Part shown: positions 38,119 to 48,097 of the stretch, piece after piece
Position numbering within the stretch: the stretch's first letter is position 1
Layout: each line of letters begins with the position of its first letter
From: Naegleria gruberi
Taxonomy: Eukaryota
Assembly (NCBI GenBank): GCA_000004985.1
Contig: GG738885.1
Direction: 5' to 3' (one strand)
Length of the DNA stretch: 64,000 bases
The notes under the pieces: model-generated
Database searches by the model: none
The model's input: only the letters and a program-made list of their open reading frames with translations
What the model was told of the DNA's origin: nothing
Made by a program: the position numbers and the translations under genes

Positions 38119-39485
38119 ATGGGTAAAAAGCAATCAAAGCAAAATTCATTGTCACTTGTTCTTCCTCCAAGCAAGTGTCCAGATCATATTCAAATTCCGA
38201 TAACTTTGGACGATAGTAGTAGATTTTCGTTTTTAGGAAATCATACGTTTTTGATTCCAACAGTACAATTGGATGATGTATTGAGAAGATTAGAATGTAC
38301 AAGCGAATGGATTCCAATAGAATTTGCTGTTAATAATTTGAATGCCACAAATCGTATTGTTGCTTTTGGACATTCAGAGAGTTTAGTTGTTATTGTTACT
38401 GGTAGGTAATAGTGTGGATTACCTTAGGTTGACTTGTTTGATTTAGATGATTTCAAAGTGTTTTGTGCTGGAAAATCAAGTGAGTTAAATAATACTGGAA
38501 ATAATGCCACATGGCGTGATTTCAAAAAGATTAAGAATACTTTTACTGAGGTTATTAAATCAGTATACTGTATTAAAGAAAGTATACTATTTACTACTGT
38601 AGATGGACAGGTATATGCCTACAGTAACTCAAAGACAGCTAAATTAGGACTTGGAGAAGCTATTGCAACAATGGAGCCTGTCAAAGTTGAAAAGGCTGAT
38701 ATTTTCGAAAAAGGATTAGCTGAGGAAATTCCACTACCAAAAATCAAATCAATTAGCTTTAGTGAAAACATTACAGCTTTTATTAGTGAAGAGGGTATGT
38801 AGATATCATTTGAAATCGTACTTAATGAGATAATTTAGGAAAGGTATTTGTTTGTGGTTATGGAAGCGGTGATAAATGGAAATTTCCAATCAAAGATGAA
38901 GATGAAACACCATTCAAACGTCTTGATACACCAGCTCTTGTAAAAAGTTTACTTAAGAATAAGGTTATTAAGCAGGTAGCTTGTGGTTTTTATCACATGC
39001 TCTTCCTTACAGATAATGGAGAATTATATGTTTGTGGTAATAATGAGTTTGGTCAACTTGGAAATGGAAAAAATGAAAATGTTGAAGGTTGTGTAAAAAG
39101 AGTCAAATTTGGAATTGGTGTTAAGCATATTGCTGCATCAAACAATTTTTCAGTTATTGTAACTGAAGATAATCAAATTTATAGATTTGGAGATTTGAGT
39201 TGGCAAGTGAAGAATAACCCAACTACTTTCAATTTACCAACTTTACTGACTGAATATACAGAAGTTGGAAATCCTCCTGTTAAATCAATTTATGCTGTAC
39301 AATCTGGAGTTGTAATTCAAACTGAGAGTGACGAAATTTACATGATTGGGCCACTTGAAGCAAAATTAGGATTTGAAGCCTTTAGAAAATTAAGTATTCT
39401 AAAAGGAGATGGAGAAATCTCATTATCCATTACTAGCAATTCAATTGTGTGCGACTATGATTCAAACAAGAAATATAAATTCTAA
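38119..39485 (+). CDS. RCC1-repeat (beta-propeller) protein with a candidate N-myristoylation signal (MGKKQS). Multi-exon; ORF pieces 38119..38402, 38447..38799, about 38840..39485.
   Basis: RCC1-type repeats: VACGFYHMLFLTDNGELYVCGNNEFGQLGNG; HIAASNNFSVIVTEDNQIYRFGD. Introns with gtaggt/gtatgt donors between ORF pieces. Confidence 0.7.
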
Positions 39486-41685: not shown

Positions 41686-41803
41686 GGCTACGGCCATATC
41701 ACGATGAATGCACCTCATCCCGTCCGATTTGAGAAGTTAAGCATCGTCGAGCCACATCAGTACTGAGGTTGGAGACAACTTGGGAACCTGTGGTGCTGTA
41801 GTC
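41686..41803 (+). rRNA. 5S: 5S ribosomal RNA gene, copy 1 (118 nt).
   Basis: GGCTACGGCCATATCACGATGAATGCACCTCATCCCGTCCGATTTGAGAAGTTAAGCATCGTCGAGCCACATCAGTACTGAGGTTGGAGACAACTTGGGAACCTGTGGTGCTGTAGTC. Canonical 5S blocks CCATA(U/C)CAC, CATCCCGTCCGAT, GAAGTTAAGC, AGTACT, GGGA(A)CC. The 5'/3' ends pair to form helix I. Followed by TTTTT, a Pol III terminator. Confidence 0.9.
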
Positions 41804-41838
41804 TTTTTCAAATTAACACTTTTAATGTTTGTTCCAGA

Positions 41839-42804
41839 TTATTCAAAATGATGTTTATTTTCTTGAATGAATTGTTCCAAAGATCTTGGTTTCTTTCCAG
41901 TAACAATCTCAAAATCTGCATGTACATTAGCAGAGGTTCCATTCAATTTGTAAAATTGGAATAATCTCACCAGTCCAAATACTAAAAACTTTGGTAATTG
42001 ACCTAATTGATTAGCCAACTCAATTTCATCAATTCTTGCCCAAGTAATTTGTCTTCCAATAACTTTGGAAATAATCTCAGCTACTTGATCATAATTTAAA
42101 GATTGAGGTCCTGTAATATTGTAAACTTGTCCTCCGTGAATATTTGGATTTTCGGTGAGAATTTGAGCAGCCATATCAGCAATATCTCTAACATCGACAT
42201 GACTAATGTGATATGGAACTCCATGGTCATTTCTTGGCTTGAAGAATTGAGATGAGTTTTTGATGGAATGAATGTCATCTCTAAGGAAGTTTTGCATGAA
42301 TAGATTAGGTCTTAAAATTACGTAGGAAACATTTGGTGCCTTATTCGAAAGTAAATTACCAATTACAACTTCAGAATCGCCATGATATCTGAATAAACTA
42401 TTCGATTCAATAGTTGTTGAAGCACCCAATCCAGATAATCTTATCACTTGTTTCAAATCATACTTTGAATATTGAAGAATCTTGTCAATTAATTGCTCTT
42501 CCACTTTTGGTTGATTTGGTGCACTCAATGTTAAAACGAAAACCCTTTCAATCTTTTCAAATGTACTCGATGGAATTAATTCGAGTTGATTCAAGTCACC
42601 TTGAACATATTCTACATCAAGATTATTTACATAATTTACAAGTTCTTGTTTTGCCTTTTCAACATTTCTCACCAAAACCTTCACTGATTGACCAAATGAT
42701 TTCTGTTCTGAAAGGGCTTTCAATAAATGCTTTCCAATAGTTCCTGTTGCTCCAGTAATAAGAATACTGCTCTTACTATTGGTTGCTGTGATTTCGCTTG
42801 ACAT
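41839..42804 (-). CDS. NmrA-like / atypical SDR NAD(P)-binding protein.
   Basis: Rossmann motif ILITGATGTIGKHLLKAL near the N-terminus; NmrA-like length. Start taken at ATG 42804 (the ORF-track start at 42858 is TTG). Confidence 0.75.
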   Translation of the reverse strand: MSSEITATNSKSSILITGATGTIGKHLLKALSEQKSFGQSVKVLVRNVEKAKQELVNYVNNLDVEYVQGDLNQLELIPSSTFEKIERVFVLTLSAPNQPKVEEQLIDKILQYSKYDLKQVIRLSGLGASTTIESNSLFRYHGDSEVVIGNLLSNKAPNVSYVILRPNLFMQNFLRDDIHSIKNSSQFFKPRNDHGVPYHISHVDVRDIADMAAQILTENPNIHGGQVYNITGPQSLNYDQVAEIISKVIGRQITWARIDEIELANQLGQLPKFLVFGLVRLFQFYKLNGTSANVHADFEIVTGKKPRSLEQFIQENKHHFE

Positions 42805-43023
42805 TTTGCTGTTTTTTTTTGTTTGTTTTATTTGCTGCAACTGTTTCAACTTTCCCAATTAATAGCTTTGTCGCACTTGATTTGTACGTGCTGCGCAGAT
42901 CAGCAAAAATATTCTGCTTCTGAAAAATAGTGCACTTTTAAGCAGCGAGTAAGCACAAAATTCCTATTCACGTTTCGAATAAAAAAAGGGGATATTCAGT
43001 ATGCAGTAGAATAGTAAGAAAAA

Positions 43024-43506
43024 ATGTCAACAAGAGCATTCGAAACTGTTAACGTGTATGTGAGTGGAGTTATTCCAAATGTTAGTGCATCAACTGTTTG
43101 GTCACTGATTGGTTCTTTCAATGGTTTGCCAACTTGGTATGATACTGTTGCCAGCAGTGAAATGGACAATAATCAATCGGATAATACTGTGGGAGGTATT
43201 CGAAAGCTCACCATGAAAAATGGTATTATTCAACGTGAAAGATTAATTGCTATGGATTTACGGAATTCTTCTTACACTTACTCCCTAGTTGATGGTATCC
43301 CATGGGAAGGATATAATAATGATTACTTTGCAACTATTTCAGTCAAGCCAATTACAACAAATGGAACTGATAAGGTAGATAACACATTATTGGAATGGGA
43401 GGCAGAATTTACATGTCCACATGGTGAAGGAAAGAAATGGCAACAAGTTATTGAGGGAATATTTGAGTATGGAATTAAATGTTTACAAAATATTTACAAC
43501 AAGTAA
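43024..43506 (+). CDS. SRPBCC (Bet v 1 / polyketide-cyclase-like) small protein.
   Basis: 160-aa ORF. Composition and length suggest a START/Bet v1-like hydrophobic ligand-binding fold (VSASTVWSLIGSFNGLPTWYDTVASSE ... EWEAEFTCPHGEG). Assignment made by eye. Confidence 0.5.
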   Translation: MSTRAFETVNVYVSGVIPNVSASTVWSLIGSFNGLPTWYDTVASSEMDNNQSDNTVGGIRKLTMKNGIIQRERLIAMDLRNSSYTYSLVDGIPWEGYNNDYFATISVKPITTNGTDKVDNTLLEWEAEFTCPHGEGKKWQQVIEGIFEYGIKCLQNIYNK

Positions 43507-43619
43507 TAAGATTGAATAAAGGTCTTTCAAATGGACTCGATTTTGATTTCTGTCTTGGCTTGAAATTTTGTTTGAATTCAATACTACATTATTAAATATA
43601 AAGATATGTTTACACGGTT

Positions 43620-43685
43620 AACTACTAGGCCTCATCCCGTCAGACGTTGAGTCACATCTGATAACTTGGTGATGTAGTTATTTTT
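43620..43685 (+). pseudogene. Truncated 5S rRNA-like element (about 60 nt plus T5), with internal deletions.
   Basis: aACTACtaGGCCTCATCCCGTCaGAcgTTGAGtcacatctgataACTTGGtgaTGTAGTtaTTTTT. Keeps the 5S 5' end, the CCTCATCCCGTC-GA-TTGAG core and the 3' end ACTTGG..TG.TGTAGT followed by a T-run. Lacks positions about 10-27 and the box-C region. Confidence 0.5.
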
Positions 43686-44172
43686 CCATTTCTATTAAAT
43701 GAAAATGCAATATCAATTACTGGTTGGCTAGTTAGCACTTGTTATCTACTTGCTCGTCTAAATATCAACCTAACAAAAAAAATCTCAGTTAGATTTGATA
43801 CGTTTCACTTTGTGGATAATGTAATTATTATTATCAACAACAGTAAACATATTTCTATTTAAATATTTTATGGAAATATTCATCAATTTTAGATAAATTT
43901 ATCAAAATTATTAAATTTTTTAATTCTTTGCTCATTTCCAATAAAAATTGATTTCAATAACATTATTTTCAAATAGTTGTAATCTTTCAAATCCAATGTT
44001 GTTATTATCAAAATAAGTATTTACGATAAAATTATATTTTCAGAAATATTTTCAGATAACGAAATAAATAATTAGTATTATAATTTAAATTATTACTAAA
44101 AACATCTTTAAAATCATAAATAGTTTCAATATATTCAATCAGTCTATTGGGATTATTCAAAAAAGAAGAAAA

Positions 44173-44290
44173 GACTACAGCACCACAGGTTCCCAAGTTG
44201 TCTCCAACCTCAGTACTGATGTGGCTCGACGATGCTTAACTTCTCAAATCGGACGGGATGAGGTGCATTCATCGTGATATGGCCGTAGTC
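44173..44290 (-). rRNA. 5S: 5S ribosomal RNA gene, copy 2 (minus strand).
   Basis: The reverse complement is identical to copy 1 except G2->A. 5' flank (44291..44306) is the box AATTAAGGAGATAAAT. 3' flank is TTTTCTTCTTTT. Confidence 0.9.
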
Positions 44291-44354
44291 ATTTATCTCC
44301 TTAATTCTTAGTATACAAACAATCTCATACCACTACCTAATTAAGCAATTGGAC

Positions 44355-45605
44355 CTAATATTGTAGTTTTTCAAAAACTATCTTCATGTTTTGTGGTAAA
44401 TCTAATTCAGGTTTGTTGAACCCCTTCGAATAAATTAGTTTTTCTAATTTTGGTAATTTCAATAAAGATTCCAATCCAAACTGGTCTATTTCAGCATATT
44501 TGATGGAGAGTTCCTTAATGGACTCGAATTTAGAGAAATGTTCTGCTAATTCATTGGTAATACTAAACATTTTAAAGGTTTCCAATTGTTTAAACGTTTC
44601 AGGGTTCAACCTAGCGAGATTTTCCCCATATCCACCATCCTCAAATGAAAGCTCTTTCAATTGACTATTTTTGGAAATTGAATCCATCAAATAATCAGAA
44701 AAATCAGCATATGACAAGCTTAATCTCAATGTTTTGACATTCTCGCAAAATGGTACTCCAAATCCTTCAATTCGTTCTCCATGCAAAGTAATCTTCTCTA
44801 AATGTTTCAACTTATTTATGGCTGCAAATGATTCAACAACTTGCTCACTTGTTGGATCTTCTGTAATTTCACCTCTTATTAGATAAATAACGGAATATAT
44901 CTCTTTAAGATTCTTCCAATTTTCAAATATTTCTGGCGCTGTAAAAATTGATGTTAATGACTTGTTTTTGAAATATTCTAATTGAGGAGTGTTTTTTGAT
45001 ATTTCAATAAAATGTTCAATTAATGAGCTTGAATCAATACAATCCAATGTCAATTTCTTCAAATTTCTACACTGTGCAATTAAAGAAGCCAAGCTGGAGA
45101 GACCATAATCACTATTAGAATAATAATCACATCTAATATAAATATTTTCCAAACTTGGAAATTTTTTCAATGCCCATTGAGAAACATATTCTGGAAGATA
45201 GTCACTAGATAACTGAATTGATTTAACCAAATCTGTATCCACATTTTTGAATGTTCTTTCCAAATTTTCAATTACTTTTTCTTTAGTATTATGTTTCTGG
45301 AGGTTTGGTTTCAAAATATTTGATTTTTCACCTTCTATCAAGTCAATTCTCTTTCCATCATTGGCACAAAGTTCAATATTTATCACTTGTCTTTCAAATG
45401 ATTCTTCCACCCTCGTTTGGTCCCAACACAAATTCTTGAATAAGAAGCAAATATTTCCTGTTGGAAATCTTCCAAAATAATACTTGAAAAATGTTGAAGA
45501 TTTTCTACTGCACAACTTGGCTTCAAATTCTAAATAGGACAAAATTTCCATTATGATTTCTGATGGAAGCTGGTGATAGAGTTCACCACCATCATGTGTT
45601 GACAT
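44355..45605 (-). CDS. F-box / leucine-rich-repeat protein.
   Basis: N-terminal F-box LPSEIIMEILSYLEFEAKLCSRKSSTFFK, followed by repeated LxxLxxLxL units (LKKLTLDCIDSSSLIEHF, LEKITLHGERIEGF, LKELSFEDGGYGENL...). Confidence 0.7.
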   Translation of the reverse strand: MSTHDGGELYHQLPSEIIMEILSYLEFEAKLCSRKSSTFFKYYFGRFPTGNICFLFKNLCWDQTRVEESFERQVINIELCANDGKRIDLIEGEKSNILKPNLQKHNTKEKVIENLERTFKNVDTDLVKSIQLSSDYLPEYVSQWALKKFPSLENIYIRCDYYSNSDYGLSSLASLIAQCRNLKKLTLDCIDSSSLIEHFIEISKNTPQLEYFKNKSLTSIFTAPEIFENWKNLKEIYSVIYLIRGEITEDPTSEQVVESFAAINKLKHLEKITLHGERIEGFGVPFCENVKTLRLSLSYADFSDYLMDSISKNSQLKELSFEDGGYGENLARLNPETFKQLETFKMFSITNELAEHFSKFESIKELSIKYAEIDQFGLESLLKLPKLEKLIYSKGFNKPELDLPQNMKIVFEKLQY

Positions 45606-45943
45606 TTTTTTTTAAAATTGGCTATTTTTCAAAGTTCATCTAAGCGCTATCCTGAAAGATTGAAATGTAAAATTCATTTAAATTGAGAATAGAGTGATGT
45701 TGCATTTGTAACAACTTTATTCCTGATACTGTAACCATGTAGTGTTGTTTGTTACAATTGTTATTGCAAAATTCTAATGATTGTTAACAATTAGCTAATA
45801 GTTAATAAAGATGAGATGATCATAGACACAATAGTATCAATTTCATCAAGTGGAAATGTTGATAATTAAATATTCTGATGAATAGTTTACTTTCTAAAAC
45901 GTTCGGTAATCCTTTCCATGAACTTTAAGATCAACAAAAAAAA

Positions 45944-47002
45944 ATGCAAAGATCACAACAACAGCAAACCATCAAACTCACCAAAGCAAAACAAAAGAAA
46001 ACAATTTCTTCAGAAAGATTGCCAACAGAAACATTTATATCCATTGTTAGAGATTGTGTAAAATTACAACTTGATATTAGACCTTTACAATTCAAAAAGA
46101 AAATCTCTAACGGAACCAGAGACTTTCTTTGTGATAAGGTAAAGAATTCGAAGGCAGTTTGTCGAGAAATCAATAGAGGAGATAATGTCATGATGAATAT
46201 AATTTTCACATGTCAAGATTCTCAACCAATAATTCCAAATTATATTAAGGGAGTAACGAGTTATATTGAAAAGCATAAAATTTCGTACCCAGACAAGATC
46301 ATGTCAATTGACACTTTACGAATTGATATTGAATTTCCGTACCATAATTCAATAACAGAGGTTGCTAAGAAGATTAATTTACATGAGGAAGAATCATTGA
46401 TCAATTCTCTTATAACCATTATTGATAAGGATGATCATCAAGTGTATTTCAAAATGAAAACTAATTATTGCAATGAGGATAAGGAACATTTGTATAGATA
46501 CATTGTAATTGGAAAAATGGATCAAAGTGAGCATGCTTTCATCTTTGATGTGAGCGATTTTATAAATATTTGTGGTATCAATGGTGGTATTCCAAAAAAT
46601 CTCAAAAAGATTTATGATTTGTGCATGCCAAAGGATTTAGTCCAATATTTTGAAAAGAATGGATGCAGCTCAACAAATTCAGATACAAGTGTCAGAAGAG
46701 TTGGATTTGGAATGTTCTTCAGATCAGATACCAGACCACGCAGAGAGCGTTTCGGACAATACTACCGCCCATGTTGGGAATCAGATGGTTCAGTTGCAGC
46801 CTTAGTGAACTCGTACTCAAGGAATGGAGATTATGGTATTCAAATATTGGCACAGGGCGCAAGAGAATTCCATCCAACTGAGTATTCTGGTGAGATTGAT
46901 GTAGGATATTACAAATTTAAAATGGGATGGTGTAGATTCACTTCATTCCAATCAGCCCAGCACTACACTTGCAAATTAATCCAGGAAGTTAAAAATTCAT
47001 AA
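45944..47002 (+). CDS. Hypothetical protein (352 aa); no domain recognised.
   Basis: Uninterrupted ORF with ATG at 45944. Complex, non-repetitive sequence, Cys/His-containing C-terminal part. Confidence 0.55.
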   Translation: MQRSQQQQTIKLTKAKQKKTISSERLPTETFISIVRDCVKLQLDIRPLQFKKKISNGTRDFLCDKVKNSKAVCREINRGDNVMMNIIFTCQDSQPIIPNYIKGVTSYIEKHKISYPDKIMSIDTLRIDIEFPYHNSITEVAKKINLHEEESLINSLITIIDKDDHQVYFKMKTNYCNEDKEHLYRYIVIGKMDQSEHAFIFDVSDFINICGINGGIPKNLKKIYDLCMPKDLVQYFEKNGCSSTNSDTSVRRVGFGMFFRSDTRPRRERFGQYYRPCWESDGSVAALVNSYSRNGDYGIQILAQGAREFHPTEYSGEIDVGYYKFKMGWCRFTSFQSAQHYTCKLIQEVKNS

Positions 47003-47057
47003 ATATTGAATTTTATTCTGCTACGATTTCTTTTTGAACTTCGATCATAAATTGGTA

Positions 47058-47145
47058 AAGGCAAAATGTGTCCAATAAATAGAAGATTGATCAACCGTTT
47101 CAAATTCTTCAACCAAACCTTGCTGAACTAAGAATCTTTACGTTT
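47058..47145 (+). repeat. About 88-nt dispersed repeat, copy A, 50 bp upstream of 5S copy 3. Its partner is at 48098..48190.
   Basis: ggcaaaatgtgtccaataaatagaagattgatcaaccgtttcaaattcttcaaccaaaccttgctgaactaagaatcttt versus ggcaaatgttcaataaatacgagggtgatcaaccttttcaaattcttcaaacaaaacctgaaccaacaagattctgtc, about 80 % identity. Confidence 0.7.
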
Positions 47146-47195
47146 TGTTCCAAGTATATATTGTTATTTAAATACCAGAAATTAAGGAGATAAAT

Positions 47196-47313
47196 GACTA
47201 CGGTCATATCACGATTCATGCACCTCATCCCGTCCGATTTGAGAAGTTAAGCATCGTAGAGCCACATCAGTACTGAGGTTGGAGACAACTTGGGACCCTG
47301 TGGTGCTGTAGTC
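47196..47313 (+). rRNA. 5S: 5S ribosomal RNA gene, copy 3 (sequence variant).
   Basis: GACTACGGTCATATCACGATTCATGCACC...GTAGAGCC...GGGACCCTG... carries 5 substitutions relative to copy 2 (C9T, GA21-22TC, C63A, A101C). Same upstream box AATTAAGGAGATAAAT. TTTTT terminator. Confidence 0.85.
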
Positions 47314-48097
47314 TTTTTATTTTCAACCTTTTATCATGAGAGGAAATGATTGTTGGTTCGAATCAAGTGTTCCTTTATAGAAGTCCTTTCAAAATGAAAT
47401 ATTCTTTTGCAAACCATGTTAAGAGTTTTACAACTTTTTCAAAATTCCAAAATGTTTCTATTATTTAACAGAGCGAGAAATCATACCAGATGAATACTCA
47501 CAGGACAAAATTGAGAAGGAACAACCACTTTGATTATTGACCAAATTCTAGCTACTCATCCTCTGAGTGAAAGGAGGAGAGTTTCCAGATTCACATTTCA
47601 GTCTTCATGATCTCTGAAATGTCCTTCTAGGTAAGTATGAAGAAAGCAAAGAGTGCAAATTCAAACAAATCTTAAAAACCTTTCCAGATGTATTTATTTT
47701 TGAAAATTGAATTATTGTCATTGTTTGTTTTTTTATGATTTGAATTCTTTGAAATTGTTGAACATGAAGTAAACACCGAGTTGACATAATTATATTGAAA
47801 TTTATGTAGGATGTGAATTGAATCAGAAATTCAGACAGTTCAGAAGAGAATAACGAAAATTCAACTGTGCATAATTGAATATTTTGGTTTTATTTACAAT
47901 GGTTGCCTAGGCTTACAAAATTTTATGGAGTTCACCACATTTTGAATTGTTTGTTTCTCATTTCAACAGTATTCTGTGATTGAGATTTGGAAGTTTTACT
48001 TGTTTCACTTCCAATAGAAGTAATGTTTGAAATAGATGAAGTTTCAATTTCGATTTGATTAAGAAAATATCAAACCAAAATTTGGATCAAGCAACTC

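What the first reader, a model, noticed from the sequence alone, without database searches (positions are those of the whole stretch)
43620..43685. Miniature 5S-derived element between SRPBCC and F-box genes
About 60 nt retain the 5S 5' end (AACTAC.GGCC), the CCTCATCCCGTC-GA-TTGAG core and the 3' end (ACTTGG..TG.TGTAGT) followed by T5, but two internal segments are missing, including the box C region. It could be a decayed 5S pseudogene. Because both helix-I strands and a terminator are kept, it could also be a 5S-derived small RNA or SINE-like element.
Basis: seen in the sequence. Interest (0 to 1): 0.5.

Follow-up and report, generated by a model that had tools for sequence, protein, structure and literature searches.

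The report
Decayed 5S rRNA pseudogene relic
This 62-base stretch of the Naegleria gruberi genome is the shrunken remnant of a 5S ribosomal RNA gene lying among three intact copies, and nothing I could test suggests it is more than a dead gene.

Summary
Window 43620-43685 (+) is homologous to the 5S rRNA genes of this window: gapped score 54 against a background maximum of 38 in about 12,660 windows. Homology runs from 5S position 1 to the T5 terminator.

The window is Naegleria gruberi NEG-M. A published survey reports 279 dispersed putative 5S genes in this genome, some of them short, low-similarity hits. Three full-length copies flank the element (41686-41804 +, 44172-44290 -, 47196-47314 +).

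The element is a collinear relic that has lost about 57 nt in four internal deletions, not two. These remove box A and box C of the internal promoter. It also lacks the 18-32-nt upstream motif shared by two intact neighbours. All substitutions that change base composition are GC->AT.

The Rfam 5S model does not recognise it. Its predicted fold is no better than shuffles or simulated neutral decay. It has no tail, no target-site duplication beyond chance and no second copy in the 64 kb.

Best reading: a decaying 5S pseudogene (confidence about 0.85). The small-RNA and SINE-like readings have no support. Interest is low.

The parts
43620..43680 (+). Body of the 5S relic (61 nt), collinear with 5S positions 1-119 apart from four deletions
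   Evidence: Alignment. Window-wide score scan (54.3 against a background max of 38.2).
43620..43631 (+). AACTAC + TA (insertion) + GGCC, matching 5S 1-10 (helix I 5' strand), with G1->A
   Evidence: alignment.
43632..43644 (+). TCATCCCGTCAGA, matching 5S 30-42 (helix III 5' strand and loop C), with C40->A. The junction before it deletes 5S 11-29 and has a CC microhomology.
   Evidence: (D4). Microhomology read directly from the sequences.
43645..43658 (+). CGTTGAGTCACATC, matching 5S 60-73 (end of box A plus the intermediate element), with C63->T and C67->T. The junction before it deletes 5S 43-59, which is most of box A.
   Evidence: An alternative placement (5S 43-48 kept, 49-66 deleted) removes all of box A.
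43659..43669 (+). TGATA + ACTTGG, a remnant of 5S 74-77 or 88-91 plus 93-98. About 15 nt of box C and helix IV are deleted here.
   Evidence: The breakpoint is ambiguous by a few nt.
43670..43680 (+). TGATGTAGTTA, matching 5S 109-119 (helix I 3' strand), with C111->A, C118->T and T119->A. The junction before it deletes 5S 99-108 and has a TGG microhomology.
43681..43685 (+). T5 run at the position of the 5S Pol III terminator
   Evidence: All three intact copies have a T-run at the same place. T5+ runs occur about 3 per kb per strand, so one at exactly this position is unlikely by chance.
41686..41804 (+). Intact 5S rRNA gene A (context: local loose cluster)
   Evidence: Rfam RF00001, 105.4 bits.
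44172..44290 (-). Intact 5S rRNA gene B, convergent with the relic and about 490 nt away
   Evidence: Rfam RF00001, 106.2 bits.
47196..47314 (+). 5S rRNA gene C, a variant with 5 differences, some of which break base pairs
   Evidence: Rfam RF00001, 94.9 bits with non-canonical pairs flagged; alignment.

Best explanation
The element is a non-functional relic (pseudogene) of a complete 5S rRNA gene unit. That unit once belonged to the loose local group of dispersed 5S genes in this part of the Naegleria gruberi NEG-M genome. After it was released from constraint it lost about 57 of 119 nt through four internal deletions of 10-19 nt. Two of the junctions lie in 2-3-nt direct microhomologies, which is compatible with slippage or microhomology-mediated repair. 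It also gained two small insertions and about eight substitutions. Shown here: the homology, the collinearity from position 1 to the terminator, the loss of promoter boxes A and C, the absence of the upstream motif, the AT-ward substitution bias, and the lack of any special fold. Inferred: that it is not transcribed and has no function, and the mechanism of the deletions.
For: (1) Homology with the window's 5S genes is highly significant and unique in the window.
(2) It is collinear from 5S position 1 through the T-run, so it descends from a whole gene unit by internal loss.
(3) The organism is N. gruberi NEG-M. The SRPBCC ORF is exactly EFC41510.1. PMC3369914 reports 279 dispersed putative 5S genes in this genome, about 15 of them short (80-106 nt) low-similarity hits, so degenerate 5S copies are a known component.
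(4) Three full-length copies lie within 3.6 kb, and one of them (C) already carries 5 differences that break pairs. The locus therefore shows a series of decay states.
(5) Box A (50-64) and box C (80-97) are largely or wholly deleted. The 18-32 nt upstream block shared by copies B and C (154-nt repeat at 93%, I1) is not present upstream of the relic.
(6) Six of the eight substitutions are G/C->A/T and none is A/T->G/C. The element's GC is 45%, between the 5S genes (50%) and the surrounding intergenic DNA (21.5%). This is drift towards background composition.
(7) The Rfam 5S covariance model gives no hit even at E<=10.
(8) The fold is unremarkable. MFE is -15.7 kcal/mol, z = -1.48, and 16 of 200 shuffles do as well. 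A 5S-like three-way junction would be only -6.9 kcal/mol and has essentially zero ensemble probability. 13% of simulated neutral decay products fold at least as well.
Against: The ratio of large deletions to substitutions is high: four deletions of 10-19 nt against about eight substitutions. Both termini and the terminator survived. The G1->A and C118->T changes together keep the first helix-I pair, which could be read as compensatory. A TATA-like TATAAA lies at about -20, and a new 6-bp stem (GUCAGA/UCUGAU) is made partly from derived bases. None of these exceeds chance in the controls I ran. They mean that Pol III transcription from an upstream element cannot be excluded, especially since PMC3369914 found no TFIIIA in N. 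gruberi. Genome-wide copy number and expression were not testable.
Confidence: 0.85

Rival explanations
1. The element is a transcribed 5S-derived small RNA. RNA polymerase III would start at about 43620, directed by an upstream TATA-like element, and stop at the T5 run. The product would be a 62-66-nt RNA folded as an extended hairpin (helix I plus a new 6-bp stem), with some function of its own or as a by-product.
For: A TATAAA lies 17-22 nt upstream and T5 follows directly after helix I. Helix I is kept with ensemble probability of about 0.94, and the GUCAGA/UCUGAU stem has P of about 0.99. G1->A and C118->T keep a base pair. No TFIIIA was reported in N. gruberi, so upstream elements may matter for its 5S genes (PMC3369914).
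Against: Boxes A and C are deleted. The upstream block conserved between intact copies B and C is absent. TATA-like strings are ubiquitous in DNA that is 21.5% GC. Fold stability is within shuffles (z = -1.48) and within simulated neutral decay (13% as good). The substitution spectrum is purely AT-ward, as expected without constraint. There is no second copy in the window.
Confidence: 0.08
2. The element is a member of a 5S-derived SINE-like or other mobile repeat family in Naegleria.
For: Only that it is 5S-derived and short, and that 5S units in this genome are dispersed as units of about 150 bp. This shows that some mechanism spreads 5S sequences.
Against: There is no second copy in 64 kb. 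It has no internal promoter and no body or simple-repeat tail, since it ends in the gene's own terminator. The flanking 8-nt repeat TATTAAAT is at chance level: about 19% of random positions have a flanking repeat of 8 nt or more. At 62 nt it is shorter than the shortest SINE consensus in SINEBase, 75 nt (PMC3531059). A junction-spanning pattern found only unrelated high-GC bacterial sequences in metagenome contigs, and 14-mer scans of the viral and prokaryote collections gave only chance hits.
Confidence: 0.02
3. The resemblance to 5S is a chance similarity in AT-rich intergenic DNA.
For: Individual blocks are short (6-14 nt). Gapped alignment with cheap gap extension can over-fit, as the score-38 match in RCC1 coding sequence shows.
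Against: The score is about 8 sd above the window background and well above the maximum of about 12,660 windows and of 500 shuffles. There is a 12/12 exact block and a 12/14 block, all blocks are collinear, the T-run sits at the homologous place, and three true 5S genes are adjacent.
Confidence: 0.01

Closest known systems
5S rRNA pseudogenes and degenerate 5S copies. Examples are the short, low-similarity entries among the 279 putative 5S genes of N. gruberi in Table S1 of PMC3369914, and, from my own knowledge, the truncated 5S pseudogene in the Xenopus oocyte 5S repeat and the RNA5SP loci of mammals.
   Same: It derives from a 5S gene, lies next to intact copies, has lost promoter elements, and is decaying by deletion and AT-ward substitution.
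   Different: It is more heavily deleted (62 nt) than any entry in that table (shortest 80 nt) and is not listed there. The expected position, about scaffold_41:299,623, is absent. Unlike 5'- or 3'-truncated pseudogenes, it keeps both termini.
5S rRNA-derived SINEs, such as SINE3 of zebrafish and the 5S-headed SINEs of fruit bats (as catalogued in SINEBase, PMC3531059)
   Same: A short sequence derived from 5S rRNA.
   Different: SINEs keep the internal Pol III promoter in the 5S head, carry a body and a simple-repeat tail, are at least 75 nt long and occur in 100 or more copies. The element has none of these features that could be tested.
Dispersed functional 5S rRNA genes of N. gruberi (Rfam RF00001)
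   Same: It has the same 5' and 3' terminal sequences, the same loop C sequence and the same terminator, and it sits in the same kind of intergenic position between convergent genes.
   Different: It gives no RF00001 hit at E<=10. Helices II, IV and most of V, and loops B, D and E, are gone, so it cannot fold as a 5S three-way junction.

Membership tests
5S rRNA gene (Rfam RF00001) | Scores at or above the family gathering threshold (38 bits) with the covariance model | tested here: not met
   No 5S hit in 43500-43800 even at E<=10. The three neighbours score 95-106 bits.
5S rRNA gene (Rfam RF00001) | Three-way junction with helices I-V and loops A-E | tested here: not met
   Only helix I (6 bp) survives. 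A forced 5S-like junction is -6.9 kcal/mol against an MFE of -15.7, and its pairs have probability of about 0.
5S rRNA pseudogene / relic | Significant, collinear sequence homology to the organism's functional 5S gene | tested here: met
   Score 54 against a background max of 38; shuffle z of about 7; collinear blocks from position 1 to the terminator.
5S rRNA pseudogene / relic | Disabling lesions: loss of structural elements and of the internal control region (box A 50-64, box C 80-97) | tested here: met
   The deletions 43-59 (or 49-66) and about 78-92 remove most or all of both boxes. Box definitions follow PMC3369914 and established Xenopus work (my own knowledge).
5S rRNA pseudogene / relic | Evolves without constraint | tested here: inconclusive
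   The substitution spectrum is 6/8 GC->AT and 0 AT->GC, and GC is intermediate between gene and intergenic DNA. This fits neutrality, but no orthologous or paralogous copy was available for a rate test.
5S rRNA pseudogene / relic | Not expressed as a stable RNA | not testable with these tools
   No expression data are reachable.
SINE (SINEBase definition, PMC3531059) | [quoted passage not shown] | tested here: inconclusive
   There is one copy in 64 kb, and none in the metagenome, viral or prokaryote collections.
SINE (SINEBase definition, PMC3531059) | At least 60% identity with 5S rRNA over an overlap of at least 60 nt | tested here: not met
   Only about 50 of 119 5S positions are matched, in blocks of 14 nt or less separated by deletions. 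No 60-nt overlap reaches 60% identity without counting the deletions.
SINE (SINEBase definition, PMC3531059) | Internal Pol III promoter in the head | tested here: not met
   Boxes A and C are deleted.
SINE (SINEBase definition, PMC3531059) | Modular structure with a simple-repeat or A-rich tail (and usually a body), flanked by target-site duplications | tested here: not met
   The element ends in the 5S terminator T5 with no tail. The best flanking direct repeat is 8 nt, and a repeat of that length or more is found at about 19% of random positions.

The most novel reading that the evidence does not exclude
The relic is not dead. It would be a Pol III-transcribed RNA of about 62 nt, driven by an upstream TATA-like element in an organism reported to lack TFIIIA. 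It would keep the 5S termini (helix I, a La-binding U-tail) and the loop C sequence, and would have been reshaped into a hairpin. That would make it an early stage in the birth of a new small RNA from a 5S gene, or a founder of a 5S-derived repeat in a heterolobosean.
Probability: 0.05. Interest if true: 0.5.

Novelty: new member of a known kind. Interest (0 to 1): 0.1.

Why it matters
It matters little on its own. It adds one unannotated, heavily deleted 5S pseudogene to a genome already reported to hold 279 dispersed 5S copies. It also shows that homology searches with covariance models or BLAST miss relics of this kind. The only wider point is that the locus offers a small decay series: two intact copies, one variant copy and one relic dominated by deletions. 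With the whole genome in hand, that series could be used to estimate the deletion bias of N. gruberi intergenic DNA and the turnover of its dispersed 5S genes.

Tried and rejected
- **Rfam.** A scan of the region at E<=10 gave no 5S hit and no other credible family on either strand.
- **Second copy in the window.** blastn-short and nhmmer found none.
- **Metagenome contigs.** A pattern spanning a deletion junction gave five hits, all unrelated high-GC bacterial DNA.
- **Prokaryote-genome and viral contigs.** The 14-mer CCTCATCCCGTCNGA was too unspecific. It returned hundreds of chance hits, none extending to real homology.
- **Rest of the N. gruberi genome.** I tried to reach it, and the paralogous locus of EFC38743.1, through the look-up of encoding contigs. 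Nothing was on record.
- **Orthologous locus in a more distant Naegleria-like metagenome contig (L001, 71% aa identity).** Synteny is not kept; a Sec5 gene follows directly and there is no 5S-like sequence. Uninformative.
- **A possible second relic at 38985-39065 (score 38).** Rejected: it is RCC1-repeat coding sequence.
- **Upstream homology.** I considered an alternative 5' alignment in which AAAGATA...ACGG upstream of the element matches the GGAGATA...ACGG of intact copies with the same spacing, and a shared TTATT(T)AAATA at about -30 with copy C. Both are too weak to separate from chance in DNA of this composition.
- **A miniature 5S three-way junction (CUCA/UGAG and UCAC/GUGA hairpins).** Rejected on energy.
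- **Target-site duplications.** At chance level.
- **The N. gruberi genome paper.** Not held in the library.

Full report
**What is there.** Window 43620-43685 (+) reads AACTACTAGGCCTCATCCCGTCAGACGTTGAGTCACATCTGATAACTTGGTGATGTAGTTATTTTT. Rfam finds three full-length 5S rRNA genes in the window, at 41686-41804 (+), 44172-44290 (-) and 47196-47314 (+), scoring 95-106 bits. It reports nothing at the element itself, even at E<=10.

**Is the similarity real?** A gapped global alignment of the element to the window's own 5S sequence scores 48.8. Five hundred shuffles give 18.0 +/- 4.2, with a maximum of 34.7. I also scanned every 70-nt window on both strands. The element scores 54.3, against a background mean of 17.6, sd 4.6 and maximum 38.2 over about 12,660 windows. 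The best background window, 38985-39065, lies in RCC1-repeat coding sequence and is a chance match. The homology is therefore real and unique in the window.

**Organism and context.**
- The SRPBCC ORF upstream (43024-43506; Pfam Polyketide_cyc2, E 4e-13) is identical to N. gruberi protein EFC41510.1/NAEGRDRAFT_70680. The window is therefore Naegleria gruberi NEG-M.
- PMC3369914 reports 279 putative 5S genes in this genome. They are not linked to the rDNA and are spread over many scaffolds. About 15 of them are short (80-106 nt), low-similarity entries.
- The spacing and similarity values of three scaffold_41 entries (297689, 300171, 303199) match the three genes of this window. The element itself, expected near 299,623, is not in that table.
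- The 5S genes sit in intergenic regions. Copy A lies between the 3' ends of two convergent genes (bL20 and NmrA-like). The relic and copy B lie together between the 3' ends of two others (SRPBCC and the F-box/LRR gene). Copy C lies downstream of an ORF with no Pfam match, next to a U1-like gene.
- Copies B and C share a 154-nt unit at 93% identity, which includes about 32 nt upstream of the gene (I1).

**Anatomy.** The best alignment is collinear from 5S position 1 to the terminator:

| Element sequence | 5S positions | Changes |
|---|---|---|
| AACTAC | 1-6 | G1->A |
| TA | none | insertion |
| GGCC | 7-10 | none |
| TCATCCCGTCAGA | 30-42 | C40->A |
| CGTTGAGTCACATC | 60-73 | C63->T, C67->T |
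| TGATA | remnant of 74-77 or 88-91 | breakpoint ambiguous |
| ACTTGG | 93-98 | none |
| TGATGTAGTTA | 109-119 | C111->A, C118->T, T119->A |
| T5 | terminator position | matches the T-run of all intact copies |

- Four segments are missing: 11-29, 43-59 (or 49-66 in an equally plausible placement), about 78-92, and 99-108.
- Two of the junctions lie in 2-3-nt direct microhomologies (CC and TGG).
- By the box definitions used in PMC3369914, box A (50-64) is mostly or wholly gone. Box C (80-97) is reduced to its last five bases. Only the intermediate element survives.
- The upstream block conserved between copies B and C is not recognisable upstream of the element.

**Signs of constraint, or the lack of it.**
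- Six of the eight substitutions are G/C->A/T and none goes the other way.
- The element's GC is 45%. The intact genes are at 50% and the rest of this intergenic region is at 21.5%. This is what drift towards background composition looks like.
- The predicted fold is helix I plus a new 6-bp stem, at -15.7 kcal/mol. Its z-score against dinucleotide shuffles is only -1.48, and 16 of 200 shuffles fold as well.
- A 5S-like three-way junction, which can be drawn on paper, costs about 9 kcal/mol more and has essentially zero ensemble probability.
- I simulated 1,000 neutral decays of the 5S gene with the same deletion sizes, eight AT-biased substitutions and three inserted bases, and no deletion allowed in the terminal 6 nt. 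Of these, 13% fold at least as stably and about 32% keep six or more consecutive helix-I pairs.
The G1->A/C118->T pair that preserves pairing consists of two transitions in the favoured mutational direction. It is weak evidence at best.

**Mobile-element reading.**
- There is no second copy in the 64 kb.
- There is no body or tail; the element ends in the gene's own terminator.
- The best flanking direct repeat (TATTAAAT, 8 nt) is matched or exceeded at about 19% of random positions.
- A pattern spanning a deletion junction found only unrelated high-GC bacterial sequences in metagenome contigs.
- Scans of the viral and prokaryotic collections gave only chance 14-mer hits.
- By the SINEBase criteria (PMC3531059) the element fails on promoter, modular structure, overlap with 5S and length. 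Copy number could not be settled.

**What could not be done.** That includes the scaffold carrying the 96%-identical SRPBCC paralog or allele EFC38743.1, which would be the best comparator. The only related contig recovered (L001, 71% aa identity) is not syntenic downstream of the SRPBCC gene. No expression data were available.

**Verdict.** The element is a solitary, deletion-riddled 5S rRNA pseudogene sitting in a loose group of intact 5S genes. It is an ordinary by-product of 5S gene turnover in a genome known to hold hundreds of dispersed copies. My confidence is about 0.85. I give about 0.08 to a transcribed small RNA, about 0.02 to a repeat family and about 0.01 to chance. Novelty: a new, unannotated member of a known kind. 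Interest: low.

Noticed in passing
window 47474-47638 (-): A likely divergent U1 snRNA gene. Rfam RF00003 gives 38.5 bits (below the gathering score of 69.5) but E = 2e-8 in the local search. It has a perfect 5' AUACUUACCU, the loop GAUCAUGAAG and an Sm-like AAUUUUG. It lies 160 nt from 5S copy C.
   Followed up: partly
window 47196-47314 (+): 5S copy C differs from copies A and B at five positions (C9T, G21T, A22C, C63A, A101C). Several break base pairs according to the Rfam alignment, and it scores 94.9 against about 106 bits. It may be a variant or an early-stage pseudogene.
   Followed up: partly
window 44169-44322 (-) and 47164-47317 (+): 5S copies B and C share a 154-nt unit at 93% identity. 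It includes about 32 nt upstream, ending ...GAATTAAGGAGATAAAT directly before +1. Copy A has only a loose version (GAATTTTGAGATAGACAAT). This is a candidate upstream promoter element for Naegleria 5S genes, in an organism reported to lack TFIIIA.
   Followed up: partly
window 41686-47314: The three 5S genes are spaced 2.5-3.0 kb apart and interleaved with protein-coding genes. Copies A and B lie between the 3' ends of convergent genes. Table S1 of PMC3369914 shows similar 2-3-kb spacings on other scaffolds, for example scaffold_7, scaffold_12 and scaffold_81.
   Followed up: no
window 43024-43506 (+): The SRPBCC gene has a 96%-identical second copy (EFC38743.1, NAEGRDRAFT_73481) on another scaffold of the same assembly. 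It is either a recent segmental duplicate or an unmerged divergent haplotype.
   Followed up: no
window 38985-39065 (+): RCC1-repeat coding sequence (…GNNEFGQLGNG…) that aligns by chance to 5S positions 76-101 at about 20 of 24 bases. It is a reminder that gapped alignments to 5S can give spurious partial matches.
   Followed up: yes
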